This document shows, piece after piece, positions 5,738 through 30,249 of a stretch of DNA of 32,000 nt (within the stretch, counting starts at the first letter, position 1; every line of letters starts with the position of its first letter). The notes beneath the pieces are model-generated. The model was not told the DNA's origin. It did not search any database and saw nothing but the letters and a program-made list of their open reading frames with translations. The position numbers and the translations under genes were made by a program. The DNA comes from Candidatus Heimdallarchaeota archaeon (GTDB lineage: Archaea > Asgardarchaeota > Heimdallarchaeia > JABLTI01): positions 27,944 to 59,943 of the forward strand of contig JAUWKS010000015.1 in assembly GCA_030614005.1 (NCBI GenBank). The letters are read 5' to 3'.

Positions 5738-5740
5738 AAA

Positions 5741-7466: not shown

Positions 7467-7493
7467 TCTAAGTGAAAAAAATCTCTTAGTTCT

Positions 7494-7581: not shown

Positions 7582-7681
7582 ATCATATTATTTTCTATTA
7601 TTTGTTGTTACTTCCTTTCGTTGTTTTAAACTAAGATGTCTTTAAGAAAGCAAAGACGTACACTATTTCAGGAGAAATTTA

Positions 7682-9307: not shown

Positions 9308-9571
9308 TGTGTTGAATTTAGAAAGAAAAAACTCAATAGTTCACGCTTGGTGGCGTGCTCGCATCGCCGCTACTCATCGCTTACAGCGATTCCTCACGCG
9401 TCAGTACGAATAATTATTGAAAAATTTTTATAAAAAATGCCAAAAACTACAAATCTAGCATAATCAGAAAGGAATGTCATTTTTTCTGCCGCTTATAAAG
9501 GAGAAGAGCATTTTTTAGCTCTTTATAAATAAAACCGACAAAAAGTACATTGAGAGATAGCTTCTGATAAT

Positions 9572-13708: not shown

Positions 13709-13724
13709 TAAACAGGTGAATTAC

Positions 13725-16700: not shown

Positions 16701-16883
16701 CCAGATATAACTGAGGGAACTCATTTAGTAATCGGTCATTTACATCATCGATTCTACAATGAGCGTTTCCGTGTGTATGGTTTAGGTCATTGGTTGAAGA
16801 AAGGAAAAGAACGTCATCAGAAAATCTTAATGATAATTGATTCAGCTAAGGAATTGGATGAAATAAAGCTTTATCAGTATTGA
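13725..16883 (+). CDS. YprA/MrfA/Hrq1-like DEAH helicase + DUF1998 Zn domain + calcineurin-like metallophosphoesterase
   Basis: Q motif PYEHQEEAI, GGTYSGKS, DEIH, SAT, LELGVNIP; DUF1998-type IYD...CSCERGCEYC; MPE motifs SDVH, NGDLLD, IHD, VHG, GHLH; AGGTGA ribosome-binding site favours ATG 13725 over 13692. Confidence 0.85.
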   Translation: MTKINDINRQNDTTQKFPLEVTTPREWVPILTLPPSKPRVKTDFVWADLLPKEAEGFGAVLESIVQSNHPYEHQEEAIQHLLNSSTTNNGLIINGGTYSGKSLSFSVPGIAKILTGETDFFVVFYPSKQLLLDQFDRMKELVVKLEEQSGKRLSVKMYSGDTSRSTGSTASRQVQKKELFETEQHPPNILLATFDKFWYQMMSGKKNPLFDKIMSCQYLVFDEIHAFEGFAAAIIKGFVQIHKKKNPKCHVVLSSATIDNVIGFRDDFLQGAGIITCPPVRGEHEFLGITKEHTVPFLADLWHELDTLPGKFCLVFMDSKEEIELLAERLCAKLKQDHPFFEEITVVIIHADLAYAQRKKILDEIKKGTRNRIKILISSSVLELGVNIPNVQTVVNIGIPITQKDGIVQRFARNRSNPSERRVNVCIFNLANSRDNFYWHHLEILRNILETNACNPILYPRQNPKILAGLLVLHLRYGINDYQEIMSFFLKEGRKVYEIARQQYTKLISFNVLKKAQGKILFTNQGENRLLQLKNKNVLVPLSIRAISANWSIQLKKGIDTIRLTDRTTSLGKISTKDVLKKGLSGNLIIRNRKKYLVTDVDIGHKTVFVKKYFIDDSDDTFSLPPMNQLYDPTISVGVFPKKIQGTRLVGINFGLITTYRKPKIIVNANPNAMYLNESSRNENNNYFYQELTQQESDELTLSEKSEGIIINMENELLKPKNLTAKKMLKLFGEILLIEAEMVLSIPASEFELVYNANQLAIYDKGEPNGNAEYLFLHLQEVAQQALQRLGQCSCERGCEYCYGEILGLLPDGSKEYLKQLVKDMVNISNLETLDHISLIEPNLEIDSQENRIIAFSDVHLTHELCYHEEFFDVISKFSKKADVIIINGDLLDKVSEESKDVFNQLKTKAIQEGYWSKLVFIRSSSIHDGNLEQFSGFLHQDYVYIESKTEQVLFVHGNKIGIDAKLANSTSIEVAAIQAKKELIKTGRSWLPDITEGTHLVIGHLHHRFYNERFRVYGLGHWLKKGKERHQKILMIIDSAKELDEIKLYQY

Positions 16884-17034
16884 CAAAGCTAAATCATCCC
16901 TCTGTTAATTTTTCATAAATACTCATAAATTTCTCTATAAAGCGAATTCAAGGTTTTCAACAATATAATAATAGAACCTTAAAATTAATAAGCTATCAAG
17001 TAAGATTAATTTGTTGATTGGTGAGAGGAAAAAA

Positions 17035-18606
17035 ATGACCAAACAAAATGAAAACACAAACGGAACGCTTGAAGACTATATACCTGAAGAACAAATACAA
17101 CGAAAGAAAGTAACTCAACAACACTTAGAAAGTCATTTATGGGAATCAGCAAATATACTAAGAGGTAGCATTGACTCATCAGATTATAAGAATTACATTT
17201 TCGGTCTATTATTCTTGAAAAGAATAAATGATGTTTTTAATGAAGAAGCAATCAAAGAAGAAAAAGAATTACTGAAAGGAGATTATACAGAAGCGGATGC
17301 AAAAAAACTGGCTTGGGAGGATGAGGATTTTCATCAATTCTTTGTTCCTAAAAGAGCTAGATGGTCAGAAATAAGAAAGATTACTCAAGACATTGGGGAT
17401 AAACTAAACAAAGCATTTGAAGAATTGGAAAATAAGAATTCTGTTTTACAAGGAGTGTTGTCAAGTGTTGATTTCAATGATAAAGAACGATTACCCGATG
17501 AAATTCTCTCTAAATTATTACTGCATTTCACAAAAATAAGGTTACGAAACAGTGATCTTACAGAGCCTGATATTATGGGTAGAGCATATGAATACCTGAT
17601 AAAGCAGTTTGCTGATGATGCAGGAAAGAAAGGAGGAGAATTTTATACTCCAAGAGGAGTTGTCAAGTTAATTGTTCAGCTAATTCAACCAGAAGAAAGC
17701 ATGAGAATTTGTGATCCAACTGTAGGTTCTGGAGGCATGCTTATTGAATGTGCAAAATATGTTGAGGAACAAGGAGGAAACCTTTGGGATCTATCTCTTT
17801 ATGGTCAAGAAAAGAATCTCAATACTTGGGCAATTTGTAAGATGAATATGCTCTTTCATGATTTACTAGATGCAGATATTAAAAAGGGAGATACGATACG
17901 AGAACCAAAATTACTAGAAGGAGGAGAGTTAATGCTATTTGATAGAGTGATAGCTAATCCACCTTTCAGTTTGAAGAATTGGGGACGAGAAACAGCTGAA
18001 AATGATGGTTTTCAGAGGTTTAGATTTGGTGTCCCTCCAAAAAGCTATGGTGAAATGGCTTTTCTACAGCATATGATAGCAACCATTAATGTTAATGGAA
18101 AAATAGGAGTAGTAATGCCCCACGGAGTGCTTTTTAGAGGTGGAGCTGAAAAGAGAATACGTGAGGGGATATTACAGGAGGATTTACTCGAAGCAGTTAT
18201 TGGTTTAGCTCCTAAACTTTTCTATGGAACTAGAATACCTGCCAGTATTTTAATAATAAATAAGAACAAACCTGCTGAACGAAAGAATAAAATATTCTTT
18301 ATCGACGCTTCAAAAGATTATGAAGAAGGGAAAGCACAAAACGCTCTTAGAGAGAAGGATATTGAGAAAATCGTTAATGCATACTCAAAAGGGAAGGACA
18401 TTGAAAAATTCTGTAAATCTGTTGATCTTGAGGAAATCAAAGAAAATGACTTCAATTTGAACATTTCACTATATGTCTTTAATTTTGAGGAGGAGGAAGA
18501 AATTGATATCCAACAAGTGCTTGATGAATTGAAGGTTCATGAAAAAGAACGTGAAGAGCTAAATCAGAAGGTTCAAGGTTATTTGGAGGAATTGGGATTT
18601 GAGTAG
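17035..18606 (+). CDS. hsdM: Type I restriction-modification methyltransferase subunit
   Basis: GGEFYTPR, DPTVGSGG (motif I), ANPPF (motif IV, m6A); GGTGAGAGG ribosome-binding site before ATG 17035. Confidence 0.97.
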   Translation: MTKQNENTNGTLEDYIPEEQIQRKKVTQQHLESHLWESANILRGSIDSSDYKNYIFGLLFLKRINDVFNEEAIKEEKELLKGDYTEADAKKLAWEDEDFHQFFVPKRARWSEIRKITQDIGDKLNKAFEELENKNSVLQGVLSSVDFNDKERLPDEILSKLLLHFTKIRLRNSDLTEPDIMGRAYEYLIKQFADDAGKKGGEFYTPRGVVKLIVQLIQPEESMRICDPTVGSGGMLIECAKYVEEQGGNLWDLSLYGQEKNLNTWAICKMNMLFHDLLDADIKKGDTIREPKLLEGGELMLFDRVIANPPFSLKNWGRETAENDGFQRFRFGVPPKSYGEMAFLQHMIATINVNGKIGVVMPHGVLFRGGAEKRIREGILQEDLLEAVIGLAPKLFYGTRIPASILIINKNKPAERKNKIFFIDASKDYEEGKAQNALREKDIEKIVNAYSKGKDIEKFCKSVDLEEIKENDFNLNISLYVFNFEEEEEIDIQQVLDELKVHEKEREELNQKVQGYLEELGFE

Positions 18607-19888
18607 ATTATTAATGAATAATATTGATTATCCTAATAGTTGGAAAAAAACTAAATTAACTAAAATTTTCAGGGTAATAAAAGGTCAAAGCTATAAAAGT
18701 GAATTTTACTGTAATGAAGAGAAAGGTAGAATTTTTATTAATTTAAAATGTATTCAGAAATTTGGTGGTTTTAATTTTGATGGTATAAAATTTTATTGTG
18801 GTAAAGTCGATGAAGAGAAATTAGTAAAACCTGGCGAGCTAATTATTGCTAATACTGATCTAACAAGAAAAGCTGATGTTGTAGGTTATCCAATTTATGT
18901 ACCTGATTTTTATTCTAACAAAGAAATCGCTACTTCAATGGATGTCTCAATTTTGAGACCAAAAAATAATTATATCTTACAAAAATTCTTTTATTATTTA
19001 TTAGGTTCGAAAAAAATTCATAATATAATTTCTTCGATTTCAGAAGGATCAACTGTCTTGCATTTGAATATTGATTTATTGAAGAAATTAGTTATACCTG
19101 TTCCTCCTATAATTGAACAAAAGAAGATTTCTGAAATATTGCAGTCCATTGATAATGATATTCAGAAAATTCAAGAAATAATTTCCAAAACTAAACTTCT
19201 TAAACAAGGTCTCCTCCAACAATTATTAACCAAAGGCATCGGTCACACGGAGTTCAAGGAGACGCCCCTCGGGAGGACACCAAAAGAATGGAAAATTGTA
19301 GAATTAAAAGATATATGTCATCAGATTACTGATGGAAAACATGGAGATTGTAGAAATCAGAATAATTCCGGTTATTATTTTATTAGCGTAAAGGATATGA
19401 TCGATAGTAAATTAGATTATTCTAAAGCAAGACAAATAGTAGAGGATGATTTTATTGAGACACATAGAAGAACACAATTAGAATGCGGTGATATACTAAT
19501 CGCTAGCACAGGTGCTACTATTGGAAAAATAGCAATAGCTGAAGATAAAATAAGAACTTCAAGAACAACATTTCAAAAAAGTGTAGCTATTATTAAACCT
19601 AATAAGGAGATAGTCGATTCAAAATACTTGGCATATTTTCTAGAACTCTCGAACAGGAGAATAAAAAAATCTTCATATGGAGGTGCACAAAAAAATCTTC
19701 TTCTTCGAGATTTAAGGAAATTTAAAGTGATCCTCCCAAAATTAAGTTTTCAAAAAGAGATAGTTCATTTGTTTTCACTAATTGATGAAAAATTAACAAT
19801 TGAGAAAAAAATTTTAATTAGATTACAGCTTTTAATGAAAGGTCTTATGCAACAACTTCTAACAGGAAAAATACGAGTAAAAATATAG
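18599..19888 (+). CDS. hsdS: Type I R-M specificity subunit
   Basis: Two TRDs with conserved repeats (VPPIIEQKKI...KQGLLQQLLTKG; KGLMQQLLTGKIRV); overlaps the hsdM stop. Confidence 0.95.
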   Translation: MSRLLMNNIDYPNSWKKTKLTKIFRVIKGQSYKSEFYCNEEKGRIFINLKCIQKFGGFNFDGIKFYCGKVDEEKLVKPGELIIANTDLTRKADVVGYPIYVPDFYSNKEIATSMDVSILRPKNNYILQKFFYYLLGSKKIHNIISSISEGSTVLHLNIDLLKKLVIPVPPIIEQKKISEILQSIDNDIQKIQEIISKTKLLKQGLLQQLLTKGIGHTEFKETPLGRTPKEWKIVELKDICHQITDGKHGDCRNQNNSGYYFISVKDMIDSKLDYSKARQIVEDDFIETHRRTQLECGDILIASTGATIGKIAIAEDKIRTSRTTFQKSVAIIKPNKEIVDSKYLAYFLELSNRRIKKSSYGGAQKNLLLRDLRKFKVILPKLSFQKEIVHLFSLIDEKLTIEKKILIRLQLLMKGLMQQLLTGKIRVKI

Positions 19889-19900
19889 AAGAGGAAAGAA

Positions 19901-22879
19901 ATGAAAAAGGAAAATTGGAATGAATATAATTTAACGGAAAAGCCATTCATAGAATTACTACAGACGATGGAGTATGAATACGTTAATGGAAGAGAAATCT
20001 CTCCAGATAGCAAAAATCCTGAAAGAAAAAATTATCGTGAAGTAATTTTAATTAATCGCTTAACTGCAGCTTTGAAACGTTTTAATCCTGTTATTAATGA
20101 TGCTAATATCAAGAAAATAATTTTTGATTTAACACACATTTCAGGTAACAGTCTTATTGAAATCAATGAAAAATTCCACACATATTTAATTAATTATCTT
20201 TCCATTGAGCAGGATGTTGGGCAAGGAAGAAAACATCAAACAGTAAAAATCATCGATTTTGAAAATCCTGAAAATAACGATTTCTTAGTAGTTAATCAAT
20301 TCAAAGTTGGTGGCACCAAAGAGAATATTATTCCAGATATTGTTGTTTTCATTAATGGTATCCCTTTAGCAGTTATTGAATGTAAAAGTCCTACTATTAT
20401 CAATCCTTTACATGATGCTATCAATCAATTACTTCGTTATCAAAATCTTCGTAGTCACTCAACTGTTGAAGGTGCTGAAATGTTATTCTATACTAGCCAA
20501 ATCATAGTTGCTACTTCAAATTATTCTGCTAAATACGCAACTACTGGTTCTAGAGCTCGTGATTATCGTGCTTGGAAAGATCCATACCCAAGAAAACTCT
20601 CAGATCTTGGTGATAAACCAACTGCTCAGGAAATTCTTATTGCAGGTATTTTTGATAAAAAGAACCTTTTAGATTTAATTCGAAATTTCATTGTTTTTGA
20701 ACGAAGTTATGGTCAAATAATTAAAAAGCTTGCAAGGTATCAACAATTCAGAGCAGTTAATAAAGCAATAGACCGGATTCTCAACACTAAAACTCTTAAA
20801 GAGCGTGGTGGAACCGTTTGGCATACTCAAGGTTCAGGTAAATCTCTTACTATGTTGTGGTTAGCAGTTAAATTAAGGCGCATTTCTGCTCTCAGAAATC
20901 CTACAATTGTAATACTCACTGATCGTATTGATTTAGATGACCAGATTTCATCTACTTTTCAAAAATGCAAGTTTCCTAATCCTGTTCAAGCATCTAGTAT
21001 TGATGATTTGCGACATCTATTGAGTGCTAGCCTAGGTCAAACCATCATGACCACTGTTCAGAAGTTCCTTTACAAAGAGGGGGAGAAAAAAGGTAAATTC
21101 CCCGTTCTTTCTCGGTCAGAAAATATCTTTGTTCTTGCCGATGAAGCTCATCGTACTCAATATAAACTACTCGCAACTAATATGAGAACTGCTATTCCTA
21201 ATGCTTGTTATCTAGGTTTTACTGGCACACCTTTAACTAAGCAAGAGAAAAGTACAGCGGGTAAATTTGGTTCTTATATTGATGTTTACGATATTCAGCA
21301 ATCTATCTCTGATGAAGCAACTGTTCCTATTTATTATGAAGGACGATTGCCTGATGTTTGGATTGTCAAAGGGGAAAGTTTAGATGAGATATTTGATCGT
21401 ATTTTCATAGATTTTTCAGGGAGAGAAAAGGAAGCTATTAAGAATCGTTATGCAACCATTAAATCTGTTGTTGAAGCTCCAGCCCGAATCGAAGAAATCT
21501 GTTTAGATATTATTAAACACTATGAACAATTCATTGCCCCTAATGGCTTCAAAGCTCAGATTGTCACTATGAGTCGCGAAGCAGCTGTTACTTATCAAGA
21601 AACTATTGAACGGTTGAATGGTCCTGAATCAGCTGTAATAATGTCTGGTTCTCCAAATGACCCTACGAAATTGAAGAATTATCATACTACAAAGGATCAA
21701 CAAAGACAGTTAATTAACCGTTTCCTAAAACACAGAAGTGATGATAAACTATCAATTCTAATTGTTTGTGATATGCTTCTCACAGGCTTTGATGCTCCAG
21801 TTGAGCAGGTTATGTATTTAGATAAACCCCTCAAAGAACACAATCTTCTGCAAGCTATTGCTCGAGTTAACCGCCCCTATAAACATAAAGATCATGGTCT
21901 AATTGTTGATTATTTTGGTGTTTCAAAACTGCTTGAACAAGCTTTAGCTATTTTTGACTCCGCAGATATTCAAGGCAGTCTAGATGATATTAAAAATGAA
22001 CTTCCTCGTTTAGAAGCAAGTCATCGAACTGCAATGAGTTTCTTTGAAGGAGTAAATAAAAAAGATCTTGAGGAATGTATTGCTATTCTTAAACCTGAGG
22101 ATAAAAGATTAAGGTTTGAAGGAGCTTTCAAGAAATTCTCTAAAAGTATGGAAATGCTTATGCCTGATCCTGTTGTTAATCCTTATCTTAGAGATCTCCT
22201 CCTTTTAGGCAAGATTAGGAATGCTGCTAGAAATCGTTATAGAGATGAGCAATTGAATCTTCAAGGTTGTAGTGCTAAAGTTAAGAAATTAATTGAAGAC
22301 CACATTAGAGCTTCAGGCGTAGATCCTATCAGCGAACCCATAGACATTTTTTCCAGCCAATTTCAAACTAGCGTTGACAAATTAGTTAATGATCGTGCTC
22401 GAGCCAGTGAAATAGAATATGCCTTAAAGAAAGCAATCAGTATAAAATTTGAAGAAAACCCAAGTTTTTATACTTCCCTTAGAAAAAGGTTAGAGGAAAT
22501 CATTGATTCCTACAAAGCAGAGCGACTAATCATTTCTGAGGTAGTGAAGCAGTTGAGGAAATTAGTTACTGAATCTCAAAATATCAAATCCACAGCTCAA
22601 TCTCTTGGCTTAGATGAAGATTCTTTTGCTATTTTTGGTTTATTAAATGATGAAATTACCGAGGACGTTGCAGATAATAGTTTTAAGGATTCAGCTCCTG
22701 AAATAGTTAAAATATTACAAGATTTGACAGTTATTGATTGGATAACCAAAGATGATATTCAACGAAGGATGCGTAAGAAACTTAAACTTCTTTTAATAAA
22801 GAAGAAATATCCGAAGGATAAAGTTGAACCAGTCATTTATCGGATACTTGATTTAGCTCGCGTTAGATTCCGACGATAA
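19901..22879 (+). CDS. hsdR: Type I R-M restriction subunit
   Basis: PD-(D/E)xK nuclease IPDIVVFINGIPLAVIECK, HTQGSGKS, DEAHR, FTGTP, MLLTGFDAP, QAIARVNR. Confidence 0.97.
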   Translation: MKKENWNEYNLTEKPFIELLQTMEYEYVNGREISPDSKNPERKNYREVILINRLTAALKRFNPVINDANIKKIIFDLTHISGNSLIEINEKFHTYLINYLSIEQDVGQGRKHQTVKIIDFENPENNDFLVVNQFKVGGTKENIIPDIVVFINGIPLAVIECKSPTIINPLHDAINQLLRYQNLRSHSTVEGAEMLFYTSQIIVATSNYSAKYATTGSRARDYRAWKDPYPRKLSDLGDKPTAQEILIAGIFDKKNLLDLIRNFIVFERSYGQIIKKLARYQQFRAVNKAIDRILNTKTLKERGGTVWHTQGSGKSLTMLWLAVKLRRISALRNPTIVILTDRIDLDDQISSTFQKCKFPNPVQASSIDDLRHLLSASLGQTIMTTVQKFLYKEGEKKGKFPVLSRSENIFVLADEAHRTQYKLLATNMRTAIPNACYLGFTGTPLTKQEKSTAGKFGSYIDVYDIQQSISDEATVPIYYEGRLPDVWIVKGESLDEIFDRIFIDFSGREKEAIKNRYATIKSVVEAPARIEEICLDIIKHYEQFIAPNGFKAQIVTMSREAAVTYQETIERLNGPESAVIMSGSPNDPTKLKNYHTTKDQQRQLINRFLKHRSDDKLSILIVCDMLLTGFDAPVEQVMYLDKPLKEHNLLQAIARVNRPYKHKDHGLIVDYFGVSKLLEQALAIFDSADIQGSLDDIKNELPRLEASHRTAMSFFEGVNKKDLEECIAILKPEDKRLRFEGAFKKFSKSMEMLMPDPVVNPYLRDLLLLGKIRNAARNRYRDEQLNLQGCSAKVKKLIEDHIRASGVDPISEPIDIFSSQFQTSVDKLVNDRARASEIEYALKKAISIKFEENPSFYTSLRKRLEEIIDSYKAERLIISEVVKQLRKLVTESQNIKSTAQSLGLDEDSFAIFGLLNDEITEDVADNSFKDSAPEIVKILQDLTVIDWITKDDIQRRMRKKLKLLLIKKKYPKDKVEPVIYRILDLARVRFRR

Positions 22880-22906
22880 TATAAATGACAATTATAATAC
22901 AATTAT

Positions 22907-23644
22907 GTGGTATTTATGACTCATGTGATGTTTGGTAAAACAAAAATTGATTATAAAACGGAAATAAGCAACAAACGCAAAACCGTTGGCGTTTCAGTTG
23001 ATTATAATAATGGAGTCATTGTTACTTTACCAAAGAATATATCACAAGAAGAAATCGATAGAGTTGTTCTCCAAAAAGCTCCCTGGATTTTAGACAAGTT
23101 ACATGAATTTGGTGAAGTTATTATCAAACCATCTGATAATGAATTTGTTAGTGGTGAGAAATACCTCTATCTAGGCAGAGGTTACAGATTAAAGGTTATT
23201 GAGAGCGAAGATGTCATTAAACCTAGTCTAGTTTTTTACAGGGGAAAATTCCTTGTTACCATTAACAATAATATTACTGAAGAGGAACAAACACAAATAG
23301 TCAGAGATCAAATTCTTAAATGGTACATAGAAAAAGCAGAACTATTCCTTAAAGAGAGGGTTAGCATTCTTTCTGAGAAAACCGGCATACAACCTCAAGG
23401 AATGAGGGTCAGAGAACAACAGAAAAGATGGGGTAGCTGTACCAAAGATAACATCTTGATTTTCAACAGGTTAATTATTATGGCTCCTGTATCTGTAATC
23501 GATTATATTATTATTCATGAACTCTGTCATCTAAAATATCCTAATCATTCAGAGAACTTTTGGAAAGAGGTAGCTGTTTTTTGCCCAGACTTTCAAAATA
23601 GAAGAGATTGGTTGAGAATAAGAGGACCAGAATTATCATTTTAG
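22907..23644 (+). CDS. M48/YgjP (DUF45)-family metal-dependent hydrolase, commonly found next to type I R-M
   Basis: QQKRWGSC and IDYIIIHELCHL (HExxH). Confidence 0.9.
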   Translation: MVFMTHVMFGKTKIDYKTEISNKRKTVGVSVDYNNGVIVTLPKNISQEEIDRVVLQKAPWILDKLHEFGEVIIKPSDNEFVSGEKYLYLGRGYRLKVIESEDVIKPSLVFYRGKFLVTINNNITEEEQTQIVRDQILKWYIEKAELFLKERVSILSEKTGIQPQGMRVREQQKRWGSCTKDNILIFNRLIIMAPVSVIDYIIIHELCHLKYPNHSENFWKEVAVFCPDFQNRRDWLRIRGPELSF

Positions 23645-23952
23645 ATAACAATAACATTTTTTATTTTATGATGAGTAAAATTGTTACTATCAGATATTTC
23701 TTTGATTGTTAATATACACAACTTAGTGTTGTACCTTCCAGTTTAACTTCGATAACACTTAGTGGGTTACCATCTATTAATAGTAAATAATCAGAAAACC
23801 CTGTACTTAGCGGAAACACCTGTAACCAAAAGGACAAAGGGAGGAAAAGGAAAAATTAGTATAATTGGATATAAAATTCACTCATAAAAAATCACAAATA
23901 ATCAAATCTCTTAAATAATATACAAGAGCTGTAAGTGTAAAGGGTTAGAAAA

Positions 23953-25740
23953 ATGGATGACTTATTAGAAAAGGAATTAAAAAAACCTTCTTTAATTAAA
24001 AATCCAAGAATCTTAGATTTAAAATATATACCAAAGAAACTTCTTCACAGAGAAGACGAACAAAAGATGTTAATCAAATATTTCAAACCAGTTATTGAAG
24101 ATCCTGGTAAGTATTCTCAAAATGTAACAATTATTGGTCCTGTAGGAACTGGAAAAACAGCTATTGCTCTTAAATTTGGGGAAATGATTAAAGTATATTC
24201 AGCTCGAAAGAATCTGAATTTGGAATATGTTCATGTAAATTGCCGTAGAGCTCGATCAGCTTTTCTTACTCTACTTGAGGTTGCGAGAAAATTTAATCCG
24301 AATATATCGGTCAAAAAATTTTTACCAGATGAAATTATTAACATGCTTGTTAACTTACTTAGTCAAAGGAATTCTTTTTTGATTATTACATTAGATGAAA
24401 TTGATTTTATTATTCGGAAGGAAGGTTCAGATTTTCTTTATGATATGACCAGACTTACTGATGATAAACTGGATGAGAAGGAACGGATATCTCTTATTAC
24501 AATAGCACGTGAAAGTGAATTTAGAAAATTATTGGACGATAGTACTCTTAGTACTTTAAGACAAAATATAATTTCATTAGTACCGTATAATGAAGATCAA
24601 TTAAGGGATATAATAAAAGATAGAGCAAATGAAGCTTTTTATGAAGATACAGTTTCAGCAGAAGCTATTGATTTAATTTCAGATATAACTTCGAGAAAAG
24701 GAGATACCAGATTTGCTATTGAATTGTTGGAACGTGCTGGTATGTATGCAGATCACAAACAGTCACTAAAAGTTTTACCTGAACATGTAAGACATGCAAA
24801 TGCCTTGATTCATCCCTCAATTGGACAGGAAATTGTTACAGATTTAACAATTCATCAACAAATCATTCTATTAGCTATCGCAAAACAACTTCTGTCAACT
24901 AATAATGCATATGTGACTTTGGTTGAGGTAAAAACTGTTGACAGAGAACTGTGTAAAGATTATATGCTACCAATAAGCGAACATGCACTAATATTGGAAA
25001 ATCTTCAACATTTAGAATATTGTAATTTGATTGCAATAAAATATAGTAAAAAAGAGAAGAAAAAGCAACAGACCTTGATTAGTTTGTTGGATGTTTCAGC
25101 TGAAATAATTAAGAAGACAATTAAAGAACAATTACAAAAAACTACAAATGTTGTAAATGCAATTAAGCTTAAAGATAAAGATACGACCGAAGATAAATTA
25201 GTAAAAGATGTAAAAAAACTTCTAAAAATCTCATTTGAAGGAAATTTCTTTGACGTTAAAAGAGCATATGATAAAATAACCAGAGCAGAAATGACCAAAG
25301 ATATAATCGCTTTAGTAAATTCATCAGAAGAAAATGACAATACCGCATATGCAATAATTGGTATTGTAGAAATAAATCAAAAATTCGTATCAGCAGTAAA
25401 TGTGGAGAAAATTGATGTCATAGAACAAAAGATTGTGGATTGTATAAAATACAACACTAATCGAAAAATAAACCTACAAATAAGAAAAATAAGAATCTAT
25501 GAGCTCTATCTGTGGCAACAAAATAACGAAATTACAGATGAGATAGTTTTTAAAGAAGAACAGAAAAAACCGGAAAGCAAAGAGCAAATATTAGTAATAC
25601 AATTAAAGAGAGAATCAAGAGTTGTATATGAGTTGGCAAAGAAAACAGGATCATATGAAAAAGGGAGATCGTGGAAAAGAATTGGGTCACATACAGATGA
25701 ATTAACGCAAGATGATAGAGAAAAGCTAATGAAATTATAA
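23953..25740 (+). CDS. cdc6: Cdc6/Orc1 AAA+ replication initiator with a C-terminal Schlafen/AlbA_2-like domain
   Basis: LLHREDE, Walker A GPVGTGKT, Walker B LDEID, GDTRFAIELL, wHTH; the extra ~180 aa contain EGNFFDVK, KDIIALVNS, AIIGI and WKRIGSHT. Confidence 0.85.
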   Translation: MDDLLEKELKKPSLIKNPRILDLKYIPKKLLHREDEQKMLIKYFKPVIEDPGKYSQNVTIIGPVGTGKTAIALKFGEMIKVYSARKNLNLEYVHVNCRRARSAFLTLLEVARKFNPNISVKKFLPDEIINMLVNLLSQRNSFLIITLDEIDFIIRKEGSDFLYDMTRLTDDKLDEKERISLITIARESEFRKLLDDSTLSTLRQNIISLVPYNEDQLRDIIKDRANEAFYEDTVSAEAIDLISDITSRKGDTRFAIELLERAGMYADHKQSLKVLPEHVRHANALIHPSIGQEIVTDLTIHQQIILLAIAKQLLSTNNAYVTLVEVKTVDRELCKDYMLPISEHALILENLQHLEYCNLIAIKYSKKEKKKQQTLISLLDVSAEIIKKTIKEQLQKTTNVVNAIKLKDKDTTEDKLVKDVKKLLKISFEGNFFDVKRAYDKITRAEMTKDIIALVNSSEENDNTAYAIIGIVEINQKFVSAVNVEKIDVIEQKIVDCIKYNTNRKINLQIRKIRIYELYLWQQNNEITDEIVFKEEQKKPESKEQILVIQLKRESRVVYELAKKTGSYEKGRSWKRIGSHTDELTQDDREKLMKL

Positions 25741-25819
25741 ATTAACAATATAGTAAAGGATTAATTCTGAAAGATTTGAAATCAGTAAGAAAAGGAAATC
25801 TCTTGAGCACAAGTAAGAT

Positions 25820-25867
25820 ATCTTGTTTTGTAGAAGTTCGCGCGTTCGAATCGCGCACTCCGCACCA
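25820..25867 (+). repeat. Orphan, decayed 3' half of a tRNA-Leu (att-like)
   Basis: ATCTTG-TTTTGTAGAAGTTC-GCGCG-TTCGAAT-CGCGC-ACTCCGC-ACCA is colinear without gaps with 7534-7581; no 5' half upstream. Confidence 0.85.
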
Positions 25868-25910
25868 GTTCTTGACGTCTATAATAAAACATTAATAATC
25901 TGTTGAAAAA

Positions 25911-25945
25911 TAGATTAATGTAATTAAAAACACTATTGATTTCAC
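25911..25945 (+). repeat. Left copy of a 35/36-bp direct repeat flanking the dcd operon
   Basis: TAGATTAATGTAATTAAAAACACTATTGATTTCAC vs 29523-29558: 32/36 aligned, last 18 bp identical. Confidence 0.8.
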
Positions 25946-26025
25946 CAGTAGAACCAACAAGTAGATTTTTAGAAAAAAATATTTTGAGAACCATGGGGTA
26001 TAAAATTAGATTCTGAATATTCCTT

Positions 26026-26661
26026 TTATTCGAGTCTTTCCTTATTTTTTTCATCAATATATTTACCTAATTTAATAATTTCTGGGTCTTCAAATATTTT
26101 TGAATATCCAGGTCCTAGTTCTCCATAATATTTAGATTTCCTAGTGATTATTTCTTCTGTTTTTAGTTTATGAAAAACAATTTGTGCGATTCTCAATCCA
26201 GGATATAAATAAACTGGAATTTCTCCGATGTTTGCAATTTCAAATGTTAAATTCCCAGTATAACCGGGATGTACATGTGTTGCAGTAGCATGAATTACAA
26301 TTCCTAATCGCCCCCATGAAGATCTACCACTCAAATATCCCATTAGATCATACGGCAATCTTAGATATTCCAACGTTGAAGATAATATGAAACTACCAGG
26401 ATGCATAACAAGATAATCCCCAATATCGAGCCTAAAGATTTCTTGAGAATTTCTTGCTATTTCTTTATCATCTTTGCTAACTACATCAATCTTTGATGAT
26501 TGTATCATTTTTGAAGGCATAAAAATAAATCCCAATCTGAGATCTACAGAACCCTTATCAATCTGTTTTTCTTCATCCAATAAAGGCATAATATACAGTC
26601 TTTTCATTGGTTTTGGATGTCTTAGATAATCGTGAATATCTTTTGAAGATAGTATAACCAT
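26026..26661 (-). CDS. dcd: dCTP deaminase (trimeric dUTPase fold)
   Basis: GSVDLRLG, PGSFILSSTLE, GRSSWGRLG, HPGYTGNLTFE, RIAQIVF. Confidence 0.92.
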   Translation of the reverse strand: MVILSSKDIHDYLRHPKPMKRLYIMPLLDEEKQIDKGSVDLRLGFIFMPSKMIQSSKIDVVSKDDKEIARNSQEIFRLDIGDYLVMHPGSFILSSTLEYLRLPYDLMGYLSGRSSWGRLGIVIHATATHVHPGYTGNLTFEIANIGEIPVYLYPGLRIAQIVFHKLKTEEIITRKSKYYGELGPGYSKIFEDPEIIKLGKYIDEKNKERLE

Positions 26662-26673
26662 TTTCTGTGTCCC

Positions 26674-28083
26674 CTATTTTTCCTTTAAGAAATTGAGCTC
26701 ATAACGAAGATAACTTAGTTCAATAGAATTCGAAATATATTTATTTATATAAGTAAATACCTCTTCATCATTTGCAATGAAAGTTTCATTACTTATTAGT
26801 TCTTTAATTGAATCTAATTTGTTTCTGTATAAATACCATCCAAAATTTAGAATCTCAATGAAATTAAAATTCCTAAAATTAGGAGTATGTTTTGGTTCAT
26901 AAACCTCACTAATTGGTACAGAGATATCGAATTGCTCCTCTAATTCACTAATTTTTGATTTCAAGTAATTTAAGTCTACACTTTGGTTATCAGTTTTTTC
27001 TTCTACAACTTCGATGATTTTTTCTTTTAGATTATTTAGAATAAATAGTAATGTTTCCTGAGTTATAAAATCTTCAATATTGGTTTTTTCGGTTGTATTT
27101 TTTAGTTCTTTAGTTAGATTAGATACGTGCTCATTAATTATATGATTTATTTCATCGTCAACAAAAATTTGATATTTATTAGAATTTCGCTTTATTATTT
27201 CATTTAGAAAATAAAAGCGCAGACAATTTGGTGGATGTGTACTTTGGAATGGTCCAGAAATATCATCAGTTGAAAAAATCCAAATAAACGAATATAAAAA
27301 TGAGAATCCAAATATTCTTAGTGCAAAAATATCTGAAACTATTTCATTTACCCATTTGTGAATTTTAAATTTGAGTTTGTTTATAATTGGATCAGGATAT
27401 TTTGATAAAATCTTTGAAAAATCAGTTGTAAAAATTTGATCATGAATATTTTGATTTTTATAGAAATAATGCCCAAGCTCATGACCATATAAAGAATGAA
27501 TTAGTGGCATTTCCTTAAGTGTATAAGGAAAAGATAAAACTATTGATTCAATAGTGAATTTATTAAGGAATGATTCTATATTTTCGAAATGATCAGGAAG
27601 AAAATTTTTCAGATCTGAGAGTATATATCTTATTGAATAATTTATTTGCCATTTTGCTTGAAAGACTAAATTATATTCAAAATCATTTTTTGTTGAAACT
27701 TTATTAAATAAATCTTTTAAAGGATATAAAAATTCAAAAGGAATATCCTTTTTATTTGCATTTGATATTATTTCCAAAAGAGTATAGCTTACATTCTGAA
27801 CAATCGTATGTCTCTGTATCTTTGAAAAATTAGCATCAAAAAAAATCTTATCGTTAAAAATTTCTTTCTTTTGTTCATATAGATTTTGTAATTCTTCTTC
27901 CAAAATTTCGAGTTGCTTATTCATCAGAATTATTAAATCAATAAGATAATTCAGTAAATATCTTATACCTTTATAGTTGCTAAATGTATTTTTGTGTTTT
28001 TCAATCCAATCCATTAGTGCTTTATAATAAATCTTAATATATGAAATAGCATTTTTAATTCTAGTATAAAATGGATTATCCAT
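26674..28083 (-). CDS. Hypothetical HExxH protein (putative gluzincin-type metallopeptidase)
   Basis: YGHELGHYF, downstream EIVSDIFAL (third ligand position) and THPP; 469 aa. Confidence 0.65.
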   Translation of the reverse strand: MDNPFYTRIKNAISYIKIYYKALMDWIEKHKNTFSNYKGIRYLLNYLIDLIILMNKQLEILEEELQNLYEQKKEIFNDKIFFDANFSKIQRHTIVQNVSYTLLEIISNANKKDIPFEFLYPLKDLFNKVSTKNDFEYNLVFQAKWQINYSIRYILSDLKNFLPDHFENIESFLNKFTIESIVLSFPYTLKEMPLIHSLYGHELGHYFYKNQNIHDQIFTTDFSKILSKYPDPIINKLKFKIHKWVNEIVSDIFALRIFGFSFLYSFIWIFSTDDISGPFQSTHPPNCLRFYFLNEIIKRNSNKYQIFVDDEINHIINEHVSNLTKELKNTTEKTNIEDFITQETLLFILNNLKEKIIEVVEEKTDNQSVDLNYLKSKISELEEQFDISVPISEVYEPKHTPNFRNFNFIEILNFGWYLYRNKLDSIKELISNETFIANDEEVFTYINKYISNSIELSYLRYELNFLKEK

Positions 28084-28090
28084 TATTTAG

Positions 28091-28558
28091 TCAATTCCGT
28101 ATTGGTATTGGAGATTTATAAGATTCTTCGATATTTTCAATTGATGATTTCAAAGTGCTTTTACTAAGTAAAGAGACTTTTTCTCTAAGAGAATTTAGAT
28201 TATCTTTCGAAATGGTTTCTTTATTACTTTTTAACATTTTTAATTCAATTAAAATTTCTTCAAGAAAATGATATGAGGCTTCCAATTTCACAATATAATC
28301 ATTTTTAGTGTCAACTTCAGCTGGAAATATTTCTTCAATTCTAAGAAAACTTTTCGATTTTAGAGATGTAGAATCAGGCCTTTTATCAAGTAGAATGATT
28401 TCGATTTTTGAAATAGAATTATCTAAAATTAAATAATCTTTTTTCGATAAACTCAGATTCATATATATTTTTGTTAGCGTAATAGCTAAATCATCGAATA
28501 AAAAACCAATGTTTACTAATTTTCCAACAGTCCCTAATGAATAAAAATCAGATGTCAA
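28091..28558 (-). CDS. Hypothetical helical protein, first gene of the dcd operon
   Basis: 155-aa ORF with a TTG start and GGTGGA upstream; ends 7 nt before the next gene. Confidence 0.65.
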   Translation of the reverse strand: MTSDFYSLGTVGKLVNIGFLFDDLAITLTKIYMNLSLSKKDYLILDNSISKIEIILLDKRPDSTSLKSKSFLRIEEIFPAEVDTKNDYIVKLEASYHFLEEILIELKMLKSNKETISKDNLNSLREKVSLLSKSTLKSSIENIEESYKSPIPIRN

Positions 28559-28954
28559 TAGCTCAGTCCACCATACATTTTTTCAATCGCTTTTTTATTA
28601 AATATCTTTGTTTATATATATATATTTTGAGAACGGAAACGTCTCAATATATATTTCGTCTTATTTCTTATAAATACCTATAAATGATTCTTTATTATAA
28701 ATAAGTAATGATTAGGGATTTAATCTACCAATATTATTTTATATTGATTTAATTTTGTAAAAATTCATATTCCCAACTATATTTTATTCTATGCTTTTCT
28801 TTTTCACGATTATTTAGACATTTAATTTGAATTTTTACTAATTGTGCTCTAATATTAATACTACGCAATTCCTTTTCTAGATCTAAATGAAATTCTTCAC
28901 CACTAACGATTGGTTTTATTTTATCAATTACAGGATTCCGACCAATAATATGAT

Positions 28955-29294
28955 ATGTAATTTCTGGTTTTATCGAAATTCCTTTTCCTGAACTCTTTAT
29001 TAATAGAATAAATGGTTTACAATTAAGAGTTGATAACTTAATTGAGTATTTACAGAATGAGAATATAGAAATTATGAAATTTCAATTGGAGAATCTGATG
29101 AAGATTTTAAAGAAATTTCTCTTTCAATTAAGTTAGAGCAACATGAAAAGAGAATTGATTCAATAAACAATCGTTTAGATTTAATCCAAAGAAATAACGG
29201 AATTACGATGATAATTATCTCAACAACGTCATCATTAATTTCTACTTTTTTTGCTATACTTCATATTTTAGTCATCAAATTAAATATAATTTAA
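28955..29294 (+). pseudogene. Possible frameshifted remnant of a coiled-coil protein with a C-terminal membrane anchor
   Basis: Two overlapping open frames (...FIEIPFPELFINRINGLQLRVDNLIEY... and ...LEQHEKRIDSINNRLDLIQRNNGITMIIISTTSSLISTFFAILHILV...) with no proper start. Confidence 0.25.
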
Positions 29295-29522
29295 TATCTA
29301 TAAAATCATTTTATCACTTATTTTTTTCCTATTAATTAAAATCAATTTATAACCCAAACTAAATGATCTCTAATTTGCTTGCTAAATTACGCATTTCATT
29401 ATAGGTCTAATTTTAATTAAAGGACTAATGATGGAAATATTGTTTACTAACGATCTTGTTCAATTATCTATTATATAACGTAAAATGTGTTTAGTTGTCA
29501 GAGGAATTTAAATAATATAAGC

Positions 29523-29558
29523 TAGATTAGTGTAACTCATAAACACTATTGATTTCAC
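29523..29558 (+). repeat. Right copy of the 35/36-bp direct repeat
   Basis: TAGATTAGTGTAACTCATAAACACTATTGATTTCAC, immediately before the GGGTGA ribosome-binding site of the ABC gene. Confidence 0.8.
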
Positions 29559-29571
29559 TGGGTGAATTACT

Positions 29572-30249
29572 TTGGGTAAAACGATTTTACAAACTACTGA
29601 TTTGATTAAAATTTTCGCCGAAGGAACTCCATTAGAGGTTCACGCATTACGTGGTGTTAATTTGGCAATAGGGCAGGGTGAAATTGTAGCTATTATGGGT
29701 CCATCTGGATGTGGAAAAACTACTTTGCTAAATATGATTGGTGGTTTAGATAAACCTACTTCTGGCAGGGTAATTATCAATAATCAAGAAATCACTGATT
29801 ATTCAGATAAAGATATCACCGATTTTAGAAAGAAGAACCTTAGTTTTATTTTCCAATTCTTCAATCTTTTCGAAGTTTTAACCGCAGTTGAGAATGTTTC
29901 TTTGCCCCTTCTACTTAGAGGAGAACCAACCGCTGAGGCCCAAGAAAAAGCCAAAGTTATTTTACGAGAAGTAGGAATTGGCAGTCGATTGTATAATAGA
30001 CCTAATGAAATGTCAGGTGGTCAGCGCCAAAGAGTAGCTATTGCTCGTTCACTAATCACCAATCCCAAAATCGTTTTGGCTGATGAACCAACTGGTGATT
30101 TGTCCAGCGTAATATCTAAAGATATTATGAAACTGTTTAGAAGATTAAATGAAGATCTTGGTCAAACATTTGTTCTAGTTACTCATTCTGAATTAATCGG
30201 TTCTCTTTGTGATAGAATCATAAAGATGCATGATGGGTTAATTATTTGA
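29572..30249 (+). CDS. ABC transporter ATP-binding protein (LolD/MacB-like)
   Basis: GPSGCGKT, MSGGQRQRVAIARSL, LADEPTG, LVTH. Confidence 0.95.
   Translation: MGKTILQTTDLIKIFAEGTPLEVHALRGVNLAIGQGEIVAIMGPSGCGKTTLLNMIGGLDKPTSGRVIINNQEITDYSDKDITDFRKKNLSFIFQFFNLFEVLTAVENVSLPLLLRGEPTAEAQEKAKVILREVGIGSRLYNRPNEMSGGQRQRVAIARSLITNPKIVLADEPTGDLSSVISKDIMKLFRRLNEDLGQTFVLVTHSELIGSLCDRIIKMHDGLII

What the first reader, a model, noticed from the sequence alone, without database searches (positions are those of the whole stretch)
26026..28558. Candidate defence operon: small helical protein, HExxH peptidase-like protein, dCTP deaminase
Seen: three tightly linked minus-strand genes (7- and 12-nt gaps), extremely AT-rich, inside the repeat-bounded cassette. 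The deaminase keeps RSS and the catalytic Glu (NLTFE) but has HPG where housekeeping enzymes usually have DPG. Known: dCTP depletion is an antiviral strategy, but the characterised defensive deaminases are of the cytidine-deaminase fold, not this trimeric dUTPase fold; proteases gate several abortive-infection effectors. Inference: a protease-regulated nucleotide-depletion or uracil-poisoning system that I cannot match to a named one.
Basis: partly seen in the sequence, partly recalled or inferred. Interest (0 to 1): 0.7.

Follow-up and report, generated by a model that had tools for sequence, protein, structure and literature searches.

The report
Mobile peptidase–dCTP deaminase three-gene module
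A Heimdall-group (Asgard) archaeon from a cold seep carries a 3.6-kb inserted cassette encoding a small helical protein, a zinc protease-like protein and a dCTP deaminase; the same trio, sometimes fused, recurs in other archaea and on bacterial plasmids, matches no described system, and is probably an untested virus-defence or addiction module acting on the DNA-precursor pool.

Summary
Three minus-strand genes (155, 469 and 211 aa; gaps of 7 and 12 nt) lie in an AT-rich 3.6-kb insertion flanked by a 35/36-nt direct repeat.

- **Acquired, not core:** two congeners have the empty site. None of 10 congeners has either the peptidase-like gene or a true dcd.
- **Deaminase:** it is a bona fide Dcd-family protein (TIGR02274, 144 bits) with the catalytic Ser, Arg and Glu. 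The usual Asp of the DPG motif is His here and varies across the partnered clade.
- **Peptidase-like protein:** it founds an unnamed family of about 200 representatives. Its core is an M48-like gluzincin fold with invariant HExxH and an E-x-x-S-D motif.
- **Linkage:** every strong family member examined sits next to a Dcd gene. Five are fused to the Dcd, and in one genus the small protein is fused to the peptidase.
- **Distribution:** the trio also occurs on Bradyrhizobium, Rhizobium and E. coli phage-plasmid replicons. This scan has noted it before on bacterial DNA.
- **No named match:** PADLOC, Pfam and PHROGs name no system, and I found no paper describing it.

A defence role is plausible but untested. 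In other Asgard genera the pair sits in conserved housekeeping synteny, which keeps a metabolic reading alive. My reading is a protease-gated dCTP-to-dUTP conflict module, at about 45% confidence.

The parts
28091..28558 (-). Gene 1: small all-helical protein (155 aa, TTG start) of no known family. It is the first gene of the operon.
   Evidence: ORF. No Pfam, NCBIfam, PADLOC, PHROGs or Atlas hit. A 148-175 aa protein in the same position precedes the peptidase gene in homologous loci and is weakly alignable, about 21% identity. It is fused to the N-terminus of the peptidase in genus g28 as 601-605 aa proteins; a 5-sequence HMM of the small protein detects it in two of the five at 5e-9 and 7e-8.
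26674..28083 (-). Gene 2: M48-like gluzincin metallopeptidase-like protein (469 aa). It has an N-terminal three-helix bundle (1-107), a zincin core (about 108-300) with H201-E202-x-x-H205 and E247-x-x-S-D251, and a C-terminal helical domain with the NAGW motif (413-416).
   Evidence: No Pfam, NCBIfam or PADLOC hit. Exhaustive HMMER found 198 representatives at E<=1e-3, with no informative name among those looked up. H201, E202, D251, P284 and R289 are invariant; H205, E247 and W416 are nearly invariant. AF2 model: pLDDT 92, pTM 0.91. Domain model versus PDB: ZMPSTE24 Z 9.2 (155 aligned, rmsd 6.3), Ste24p Z 8.5, BepA Z 6.7, 3c37 Z 6.1, followed by other zincins.
26026..26661 (-). Gene 3: Dcd-family (dUTPase-fold) dCTP deaminase (211 aa). 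The catalytic Ser114, Arg118 and Glu141 are kept. His131 replaces the Asp of the I-D-P-G motif.
   Evidence: PF22769 at 5.6e-37; TIGR02274 at 143.8 bits against a cut-off of 92.8. Aligns with M. tuberculosis and E. coli Dcd structures at 3.5e-27 and 2.2e-23. S114, R118 and E141 are invariant in 21 partnered Dcds, while the Asp position varies among H/N/Q/G/S/A/E/D.
25911..25945 (.). Left copy of the 35/36-nt direct repeat bounding the cassette (18-nt exact core at 25928-25945).
   Evidence: The empty sites in congeners G010 and G001 hold a single copy.
29523..29558 (.). Right copy of the direct repeat, 13 nt upstream of the ABC-transporter ATPase gene (start at 29572).
   Evidence: Window 29519-29614 aligns to G010 immediately after the sequence that matches window 23814-25945.
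28559..29522 (.). About 960 nt of very AT-rich cassette DNA upstream of gene 1 with no ORF of 50 aa or more. It holds the presumed promoter region (TATA-like run at 28611-28624) and possibly decayed genes. No recombinase is present.
   Evidence: No Rfam family.

Best explanation
This is a self-contained, horizontally acquired three-gene conflict module. Its products most likely form one complex: a trimeric Dcd-fold dCTP deaminase, an M48-like zinc metallopeptidase, and a small helical protein that acts as adaptor, inhibitor or substrate.

**Shown**
- The genes are real, co-oriented and tightly spaced.
- The peptidase and Dcd genes are adjacent wherever strong family members were found, and are sometimes fused.
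- Both enzymes keep their catalytic residues.
- Here the module is a repeat-flanked insertion in a tRNA-Leu integration hotspot, beside a restriction/helicase island. It is absent from all congeners.
- The same module sits on bacterial plasmids and phage-plasmids.

**Inferred**
- In the resting state the deaminase is held inactive by its partners.
- A virus- or stress-derived cue activates the peptidase, which cleaves the small protein, a linker or a lid segment and frees the deaminase.
- The deaminase then converts dCTP to dUTP. The motif-III Asp that dUTPases use for pyrophosphate hydrolysis is missing, so the product is probably dUTP rather than dUMP.
- Loss of dCTP and excess dUTP block or corrupt replication of the invader, and perhaps of the host, which would make it abortive infection.
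- The same logic would also let the module act as an addiction cassette for mobile elements.
For: **1. Conserved unit**
- The small -> HExxH -> DCD order was found in nearly all metagenome contigs looked up: L017-L024, L055 and an ENA contig held without DNA. A fused HExxH-DCD preceded by the small gene is in L056-L058. In L059 the contig ends inside the third gene, but my HMM identified that truncated ORF as Dcd at 1.1e-38.
- In the phylum scan, all but one of the hits at E<1e-20 have a Dcd gene adjacent. The exception, L036, ends at a contig edge.

**2. Rosetta-stone fusions**
- P0004, P0005, P0044, P0054 and P0150 (661-745 aa) are HExxH + PF22769.
- In genus g28 the HExxH proteins are 601-605 aa with an N-terminal extension. 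The small-protein HMM detects it in two of the five at 5e-9 and 7e-8.

**3. Catalytic residues conserved in both enzymes**
-.

**4. Peptidase fold**
- Closest to M48: Z 9.2, 8.5, 6.7 and 6.1. Nearly all other hits are zinc peptidases.
- Language-model neighbours carry the M48, U49 (Lit) and M78 families.

**5. Accessory and mobile**
- Congener G010 has a precise empty site. In G001 the locus collapses to a single tRNA-Leu followed by the ABC gene.
- None of 10 congeners has the peptidase-like gene. Only G000 of 11 genomes in the genus exceeds the TIGR02274 cut-off.
- The family is patchy: 27 of 399 genomes and 17 of 85 genera in the phylum.

**6. Bacterial mobile replicons**
- Conjugative Bradyrhizobium plasmid: HMM 1.3e-50.
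- E. coli P1-like phage-plasmid: 1.3e-20.
- Rhizobium plasmid: 1.5e-20. There the trio sits beside a multiubiquitin/ThiF/DUF6527 operon and an AAA ATPase.

**7. Defence context in the window**
- A complete type I R-M system (PADLOC E down to 1e-183) and a SngC/DruE/BrxH-like helicase lie nearby.

**8. Distinct Dcd lineage**
- Partnered Dcds fall outside a 93/96-supported clade that holds E. coli, haloarchaeal, Priestia and Asgard solo Dcds.

**9. Complex prediction, peptidase + Dcd: weak support only**
- Score 0.55 (median of three runs) against a best control of 0.00.
- That mark was reached by 58 of 80 solved complexes and 2 of 110 mismatched pairs. Scores of 0.60 or under came from only 7 of those 80 solved complexes and from both passing mismatches.
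- The runs agree in at least 89% of contacts, and the partner's pLDDT is at least 77.
Against: - No experiment exists and no RNA data were found.
- PADLOC has no model that matches any of the three proteins.
- In six other Asgard genomes the 48 neighbours scanned are mostly housekeeping: ribosomal L16/L10e, EF-Tu-type GTPases, PolD DP2, SpoU, enolase and PPDK, with only a few methyltransferase hits.
- The locus is syntenic within genera g28 and g26. In G115, G133, G113 and G177 the partnered Dcd is the only one above the TIGR02274 cut-off. This fits a stable metabolic role.
- The Asp-to-His change cannot by itself be read as functional, because the solo Asgard Dcds have Asn at that position.
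- Protease gating, the trigger and the dUTP product are all inference.
- The cassette carries no recombinase, so how it moved is unknown.
Confidence: 0.45

Rival explanations
1. This is a regulated nucleotide-metabolism module. The Dcd supplies dUTP/dUMP for thymidylate synthesis, which is useful to very AT-rich genomes and mobile elements. The peptidase-like protein and small protein act as regulatory or assembly subunits, and there is no role in conflict.
For: - The catalytic machinery of the Dcd is intact.
- In genera g28 and g26 the pair lies in conserved synteny among housekeeping genes and is the only Dcd above the family cut-off.
- Phage families do include Dcd as a nucleotide-metabolism gene: phrog_1663 at 5.7e-39.
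- The host and the cassette are AT-rich.
Against: - The window's genus lives without any dcd: only 1 of 11 genomes is over the cut-off. The gene is therefore dispensable there.
- A metabolic enzyme has no obvious need for an obligatorily coupled peptidase whose zinc ligands and catalytic Glu are invariant.
- The distribution is patchy, spans both prokaryotic domains and is plasmid-borne.
- Partnered Dcds are phylogenetically separate from housekeeping Dcds.
Confidence: 0.25
2. This is an addiction (toxin-antitoxin-like) cassette that stabilises mobile elements. The Dcd is the toxin through dCTP exhaustion. The small protein is a labile antitoxin. The peptidase degrades or processes the antitoxin. 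Any antiviral effect would be secondary.
For: - The module is carried on conjugative plasmids, phage-plasmids and a repeat-flanked cassette.
- On the E. coli phage-plasmid, a HigA/RelE pair lies about 5 kb downstream in the same variable region.
- The organisation is compact and translationally coupled, with overlapping stop and start codons in many homologues.
Against: - The two-gene forms in genera g26 and g27 lack the small protein.
- The locus is chromosomally stable and syntenic in some genera.
- No toxicity data exist.
Confidence: 0.15
3. The roles are reversed. The peptidase is the effector, comparable to Lit cleaving EF-Tu. The Dcd-fold subunit is a nucleotide sensor that detects virus-altered dNTP pools or modified dCTP/dUTP and switches the peptidase on.
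For: - Language-model neighbours of the peptidase include clusters carrying Peptidase_U49 (Lit), with scores 0.75-0.78.
- From general knowledge of the family: Dcd enzymes are allosterically regulated by dTTP, so the fold can sense nucleotides.
- The sugar-contacting Asp position is hypervariable in the partnered clade, as might be expected for changing ligand specificity.
Against: - The deaminase catalytic Ser, Arg and Glu are invariant in all 21 partnered Dcds. This argues that catalysis matters, not just binding.
- There is no Pfam U49 match.
- The Atlas scores are below 0.9 and count as leads only.
Confidence: 0.1

Closest known systems
Housekeeping dCTP deaminase Dcd / bifunctional Dcd-dUTPase (E. 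coli 1XS1, M. tuberculosis 2QXX, M. jannaschii 1OGH; TIGR02274, PF22769)
   Same: - Same fold and family: 143.8 bits against a cut-off of 92.8.
- The catalytic Ser, Arg and Glu and the C-terminal lid motif align.
   Different: - The Asp of I-D-P-G is His here and varies across the partnered clade.
- The gene is always coupled or fused to a peptidase-like protein.
- Here it is acquired on a cassette and absent from congeners.
- It falls outside the clade of housekeeping Dcds.
Defensive dCTP deaminase of Tal et al. (bioRxiv 10.1101/2021.04.26.441389) and AvcD/DcdV of AvcID (bioRxiv 10.1101/2021.03.31.437871; PMC10511110)
   Same: The proposed outcome is the same: deamination of deoxycytidine nucleotides that depletes dCTP during infection. 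AvcD is also held in check by a partner, in that case an RNA antitoxin.
   Different: - Those enzymes are zinc-dependent cytidine/dCMP-deaminase-fold proteins with an N-terminal kinase-like domain.
- This one has the metal-free trimeric dUTPase fold, no PADLOC match, and a protein peptidase as partner.
- Function is untested here.
M48 metallopeptidases (Ste24/ZMPSTE24, HtpX, BepA)
   Same: - HExxH, plus a downstream Glu in an E-x-x-[A/S]-D motif on the next long helix.
- These are the best structural matches: Z 9.2, 8.5 and 6.7.
   Different: - No PF01435 match.
- The predicted protein is soluble, with an N-terminal three-helix bundle and a C-terminal helical domain not seen in those enzymes.
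- Sequence identity is 13-14%.
Protease components of immune and regulatory systems: Lit (Peptidase U49), and IrrE/PprI, ImmA and CapP (M78)
   Same: These are HExxH zinc peptidases that switch a response on after sensing a phage product or DNA damage. There is weak structural similarity: PprI Z 5.6, CapP Z 4.1. Language-model neighbours carry U49 and M78.
   Different: - No profile match to U49 or M78.
- No HTH repressor partner is detectable.
- The partner here is an enzyme, which is sometimes fused to the peptidase.
dUTPase-domain candidate highlighted by DefensePredictor (Science 2026, PMC13092281)
   Same: That paper lists a dUTPase domain among predicted defence domains and states that none of them has been experimentally validated.
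   Different: The text I could read does not describe the peptidase partner or the trio, so I could not establish that it is the same system.

Membership tests
dCTP deaminase Dcd (TIGR02274 / PF22769) | Profile score above the curated cut-off | tested here: met
   TIGR02274 at 143.8 bits (cut-off 92.8). PF22769 at 127.6 bits (cut-off 27)..
dCTP deaminase Dcd (TIGR02274 / PF22769) | Catalytic Ser, Arg and Glu (E. coli Ser111, Arg115, Glu138) | tested here: met
   S114, R118 and E141 align with the E. coli and M. tuberculosis structures and are invariant in 21 partnered homologues.
dCTP deaminase Dcd (TIGR02274 / PF22769) | Conserved Asp of the I-D-P-G motif (motif III of the dUTPase superfamily) | tested here: not met
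   His131 here. The position is H/N/Q/G/S/A/E/D in partnered Dcds and Asn in solo Asgard Dcds.
dCTP deaminase Dcd (TIGR02274 / PF22769) | dCTP deaminase activity and homotrimeric assembly | not testable with these tools
   Needs an enzyme assay and a structure.
M48 metallopeptidase (PF01435) | Pfam profile match | tested here: not met
   No Pfam family at E<=0.1. No PDB sequence match for the family profile.
M48 metallopeptidase (PF01435) | HExxH plus a third zinc ligand Glu in an E-x-x-A-D-type motif | tested here: met
   H201, E202, H205 and E247-I-V-S-D251. H201, E202 and D251 are invariant; H205 and E247 are at least 90% conserved in 65 sequences. The M48 motif itself is recalled from general knowledge of the family.
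M48 metallopeptidase (PF01435) | Structural similarity of the catalytic domain | tested here: inconclusive
   ZMPSTE24 Z 9.2 (155 aligned, rmsd 6.3), Ste24p Z 8.5, BepA Z 6.7 (rmsd 3.5) and 3c37 Z 6.1 lead a list made almost entirely of zincins. The best Foldseek E-value is only 0.14.
Defensive dCTP deaminase (Tal et al.) / AvcD | Cytidine/dCMP-deaminase (zinc) fold with a kinase-like N-domain, and a PADLOC/DefenseFinder model match | tested here: not met
   No PADLOC hit. The only domains found are DCD and dUTPase.
Lit peptidase (U49, PF10463) | Pfam profile match | tested here: not met
   No Pfam hit. There are only language-model neighbours at 0.75-0.78 in which 12-49% of members carry PF10463.
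Anti-phage defence system (generic) | Enrichment next to known defence genes | tested here: inconclusive
   Yes in this window, where type I R-M and a SngC/DruE-like helicase lie nearby, and on a Rhizobium plasmid, beside a ubiquitin-like operon. No in six other Asgard genomes. No systematic statistic was computed.
Anti-phage defence system (generic) | Protection against virus infection | not testable with these tools
   Needs a phage or virus challenge.

The most novel reading that the evidence does not exclude
The trio would be a new class of immune module shared by bacteria and Asgard archaea. A zinc protease releases a dUTPase-fold deaminase that has lost the dUTP-hydrolysing Asp. The cell is then flooded with dUTP while dCTP collapses. 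In archaea this would exploit the uracil-stalling behaviour of archaeal replicative polymerases. That would make it uracil poisoning rather than simple starvation, a mechanism distinct from all characterised nucleotide-depletion defences.
Probability: 0.12. Interest if true: 0.8.

Novelty: new variant of a known kind. Interest (0 to 1): 0.58.

Why it matters
- **A second route to nucleotide-pool immunity.** If the module is defensive, it shows nucleotide-pool immunity was invented a second time on an unrelated enzyme fold and coupled to a protease switch. It would also show that the same cassette moves between bacteria and the archaeal lineage closest to eukaryotes.
- **A new peptidase family.** It defines an unnamed M48-like family of about 200 sequence clusters with a clear functional partner. 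That makes the family's biochemistry directly testable.
- **Value even if not defensive.** An obligatory peptidase-Dcd complex would be a new mode of regulating a textbook enzyme of pyrimidine metabolism.
- **Contribution of the archaeal copy.** The scan had already noted the trio in bacteria. This copy adds a clean empty-site comparison, the natural fusions, and the counter-evidence from housekeeping synteny.

Tried and rejected
- **tblastn of the archaeal HExxH protein** against the plasmid and phage collections found no match. The bacterial copies were reached through the Dcd instead.
- **Family profile against PDB sequences** gave only coiled-coil noise from the N-terminal bundle.
- **Whole-protein fold searches** were dominated by that helical bundle. 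The catalytic domain had to be folded alone.
- **Small protein:** no Pfam, NCBIfam, PADLOC, PHROGs or Atlas lead. Its only Pfam row, Phytoreovirus Pns9/10 at 18 bits against a cut-off of 27, was rejected as noise.
- **Expression:** no RNA holder is listed for the stretch, so expression could not be assessed. The contigs laid showed no form that skips the cassette, but contigs drop rare variants.
- **Rfam:** no RNA family in the cassette.
- **Literature:** three full-text searches found no paper describing a peptidase plus Dcd-fold deaminase system. The 'DCD' hits in the Koonin-group papers refer to an unrelated domain. Burroughs et al. 2015 is not held.
- **Minus-strand ORF at 25782-26057 (91 aa):** rejected as a gene, because it overlaps the tRNA 3' fragment.
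- **Housekeeping dcd in core synteny:** considered and rejected for this genome.
Full report
**Observation**

The gaps between them are 7 and 12 nt. GC falls to 0.24-0.29 across 26-29 kb, against 0.30-0.38 in most of the window.

- HELGH in the middle protein.
- GRSSWGRLG and HVHPGYTGNLTFEIAN in the deaminase.

**The deaminase**

It is a clear member of the Dcd family. PF22769 scores 5.6e-37 and TIGR02274 scores 143.8 bits against a cut-off of 92.8. It aligns over its whole core with the M. tuberculosis and E. coli Dcd structures at 3.5e-27 and 2.2e-23.

Ser114, Arg118 and Glu141 correspond to the E. coli catalytic Ser111, Arg115 and Glu138. All three are invariant in 21 peptidase-partnered homologues.

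The Asp of the I-D-P-G motif is His here. In partnered Dcds that position is H, N, Q, G, S, A, E or D. Established knowledge of the dUTPase superfamily says this Asp activates the water that attacks the alpha-phosphate. Its loss therefore suggests a monofunctional, dUTP-forming enzyme. That is inference only, and the solo Asgard Dcds carry Asn at the same place.

**The HExxH protein**

It has no Pfam, NCBIfam, PADLOC or PHROGs match. A word-indexed search found almost nothing. An exhaustive HMMER search found 198 cluster representatives at E<=1e-3, and none of those looked up carries an informative name.

In an alignment of 65 members:
- H201, E202, D251, P284 and R289 are invariant.
- G204, H205, W244, E247, G259 and W416 are at least 90% conserved.

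The AlphaFold model is confident (pLDDT 92, pTM 0.91). It shows three parts:
- An N-terminal three-helix bundle.
- A strand-strand-strand-helix zincin core carrying HELGH, followed by a long helix carrying E247-x-x-S-D251.
- A C-terminal helical domain.

Whole-protein fold searches were swamped by the helical bundle. The catalytic domain folded alone (pLDDT 89) gave a much cleaner list:

| PDB match | Z |
|---|---|
| ZMPSTE24 | 9.2 |
| Ste24p | 8.5 |
| BepA | 6.7 |
| 3c37 | 6.1 |

These are followed almost only by other zinc peptidases: neprilysin-type M13, PprI/IrrE, BlaR1, thermolysin and M1 aminopeptidases. The E-x-x-[A/S]-D spacing after the third ligand is the M48 signature. I therefore call the protein an M48-like gluzincin, but not a member of Pfam M48, whose profile it does not match.

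**Is the pairing real?**

Yes.
- Two weak first hits already sat in the same small -> HExxH -> DCD order.
- Nearly every further contig looked up showed the same order. In L059 the contig ends inside the third gene, which my HMM still identified as Dcd at 1.1e-38.
- All five long family members (661-745 aa) are HExxH + DCD fusions.
- A profile scan of 399 genomes of the phylum found the family in 27 genomes and 17 of 85 genera. All but one of the hits at E<1e-20 have a Dcd gene next door. The exception ends at a contig edge.
- In genus g28 the HExxH proteins are 601-605 aa with an N-terminal extension, which the small-protein HMM detects in two of the five. Genera g26 and g27 have a two-gene form without the small protein.
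- Weaker hits (E about 1e-11 to 1e-20, around 380 aa) lack a Dcd neighbour and are probably a sister family.
- The complex predictor gave weak support for peptidase-Dcd binding. The score was 0.55 against a best control of 0.00. That mark was reached by 58 of 80 solved complexes and 2 of 110 mismatches, but scores of 0.60 or under came from only 7 of those 80 solved complexes and from both passing mismatches. The runs agree in at least 89% of contacts and the partner's pLDDT is at least 77. Given the natural fusions, the prior was already high.

**Genomic status in this organism**

A congener contig is labelled Candidatus Heimdallarchaeota. The stretch is held by three cold-seep metagenome runs, whose contigs bridge both cassette junctions.

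*Gene content.* The genome (90% complete) has only one other Dcd-fold gene, an archaeal dUTPase (NF002598 at 166 bits). Within the genus, only this genome exceeds the TIGR02274 cut-off (1 of 11). The others have just the dUTPase orthologue, and none has the HExxH family.

*Empty sites.*
- In G010 the Orc1/Cdc6 gene and the tRNA fragment run straight into the ABC-transporter gene. Window 23814-25945 and window 29519-29614 map to adjacent, 39-nt-overlapping positions there.
- The cassette is bounded by a 35/36-nt imperfect direct repeat whose 18-nt core is unique to these two sites in the genome.
- In G001 the whole of 717-29518 is replaced by a single tRNA-Leu followed by the ABC gene.

*What this means.* The region is a tRNA-Leu integration hotspot holding at least two larger elements, with the trio cassette as a separate third insertion. 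The neighbouring element is a defence island: a complete type I R-M system, a YgjP-like peptidase, and a SngC/DruE/BrxH-like DEAD-MZB helicase fused to a phosphoesterase.

It is the only dcd, but it is plainly acquired rather than core.

**Distribution beyond archaea**

A Dcd tblastn search led to three bacterial replicons:
- A conjugative Bradyrhizobium plasmid with a full-length trio (family HMM 1.3e-50, and also HPG in its Dcd).
- P1-like E. coli and Salmonella phage-plasmids with a shorter trio (1.3e-20).
- A Rhizobium plasmid (1.5e-20), where the trio sits beside a multiubiquitin/ThiF/DUF6527 operon and an AAA ATPase.

This scan's earlier notes had already reported the bacterial trio several times, in E. 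coli phage-plasmids and across many phyla, as an untested defence candidate. I confirmed by profile search that those bacterial copies and this archaeal one belong to one family.

In a maximum-likelihood tree, the housekeeping or solo Dcds (E. coli, two haloarchaea, Priestia and nine Asgard) form a 93/96-supported clade that excludes all partnered Dcds. The partnered ones are poorly resolved among themselves, and the dUTPase outgroup branch is very long.

**Counter-evidence**

- In six other Asgard genomes, the 48 neighbours scanned are mainly housekeeping: ribosomal L16/L10e, EF-Tu-type GTPases, PolD DP2, SpoU, enolase and PPDK, with only a few methyltransferase hits in PADLOC.
- The locus is syntenic within genera g28 and g26.
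- In four of five such genomes the partnered Dcd is the only one above the family cut-off.

This keeps a metabolic reading alive. It also means that defence-island context is not a general property of the family.

**Mechanism**

The shown facts are these: one conserved unit, natural fusions, intact catalytic sites in both enzymes, and mobility. They fit best a conflict module in which the peptidase controls the deaminase.

- I commit to protease-gated conversion of dCTP to dUTP that blocks invader replication, at about 45%.
- The rivals are a regulated metabolic Dcd (25%), an addiction cassette (15%), and a Lit-like protease effector with the Dcd fold as nucleotide sensor (10%).

**Comparison with known systems**

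- The characterised defensive deoxycytidine deaminases (Tal et al., 10.1101/2021.04.26.441389; AvcD, 10.1101/2021.03.31.437871) have the zinc cytidine-deaminase fold. Neither PADLOC nor Pfam links them to this protein.
- DefensePredictor (PMC13092281) lists a dUTPase domain among predicted, unvalidated defence domains. I could not tell whether that is this trio.
- I found no paper describing the peptidase-Dcd module.

**Verdict**

This is a real, conserved, undescribed three-gene module. If it is defensive, it is a new variant of nucleotide-depletion immunity. Its function is untested.

Noticed in passing
window 676-716, 7494-7581, about 25824-25870: tRNA-Leu integration hotspot. A 5' tRNA half (676-716), a full tRNA-Leu (7494-7581) and a 3' tRNA part with CCA (about 25824-25870) bracket two integrated elements (about 717-7493 and 7582-25823). 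Congener G001 has one tRNA-Leu directly followed by the ABC gene.
   Followed up: partly
window 9572-16883: A 1378-aa protein with no Pfam family is followed, with overlap, by a 1063-aa DEAD/Helicase_C + MZB (DUF1998) helicase fused to a calcineurin-like phosphoesterase. PADLOC's nearest matches are SngC (6e-22), DruE, BrxH and DpdJ. This is probably a YprA-type helicase defence system of an undescribed architecture.
   Followed up: partly
window 23953-25740: An Orc1/Cdc6 protein (595 aa) with a C-terminal extension of about 200 aa sits at the end of the integrated element. It is 89% identical to the Orc1/Cdc6 protein of congener G010 (a Ca. Heimdallarchaeota MAG). It may be a replication or integration gene of the element rather than the cellular initiator.
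   Followed up: no
window 17011-23644: A complete type I R-M operon (hsdM, hsdS, hsdR) is followed by a YgjP-like (PF01863) metallopeptidase gene.
   Followed up: partly
window 5741-7339: A TnpB/Cas12f-like protein (OrfB_IS605 + TNB domain) lies just upstream of the full tRNA-Leu. The region is about 86% identical in congener G010.
   Followed up: no
window 25979-25991 and 28622-28634: A second short direct repeat (13 nt exact, ATATTTTGAGAAC, within a 24-nt 83% match) closely brackets the three genes inside the cassette. It may be chance in AT-rich DNA, or shared promoter/terminator-like sequence.
   Followed up: no
window 7682-9307: A 541-aa protein combines a LAGLIDADG_3 domain with an XRE-type HTH, right after the tRNA-Leu. 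A diverged second copy lies elsewhere in the G010 region fetched (L070, about 2930-3700).
   Followed up: no
L091 (Priestia megaterium plasmid NZ_CP085445.1): A solo dcd sits with rpsN, folE2, GTP-binding (YciC-like) genes and a Fur-family regulator. This looks like a zinc-starvation paralogue cluster. It suggests the metal-free Dcd may substitute for the zinc-dependent dCMP deaminase when zinc is scarce.
   Followed up: no
L027-L031 (genus g28), L037-L041 (genera g26/g27): The module varies in architecture. In g28 the small protein is fused to the peptidase (601-605 aa). In g26/g27 there is a two-gene form with a shorter peptidase (372-381 aa) and no small protein. Both forms lie in conserved housekeeping synteny.
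   Followed up: partly
L056-L058 (JGI metagenome contigs): The fused HExxH-DCD form (689 aa), preceded by the small gene, lies after a run of small same-strand ORFs and before a DnaN-like sliding-clamp gene. This looks like a phage or other mobile-element region.
   Followed up: no
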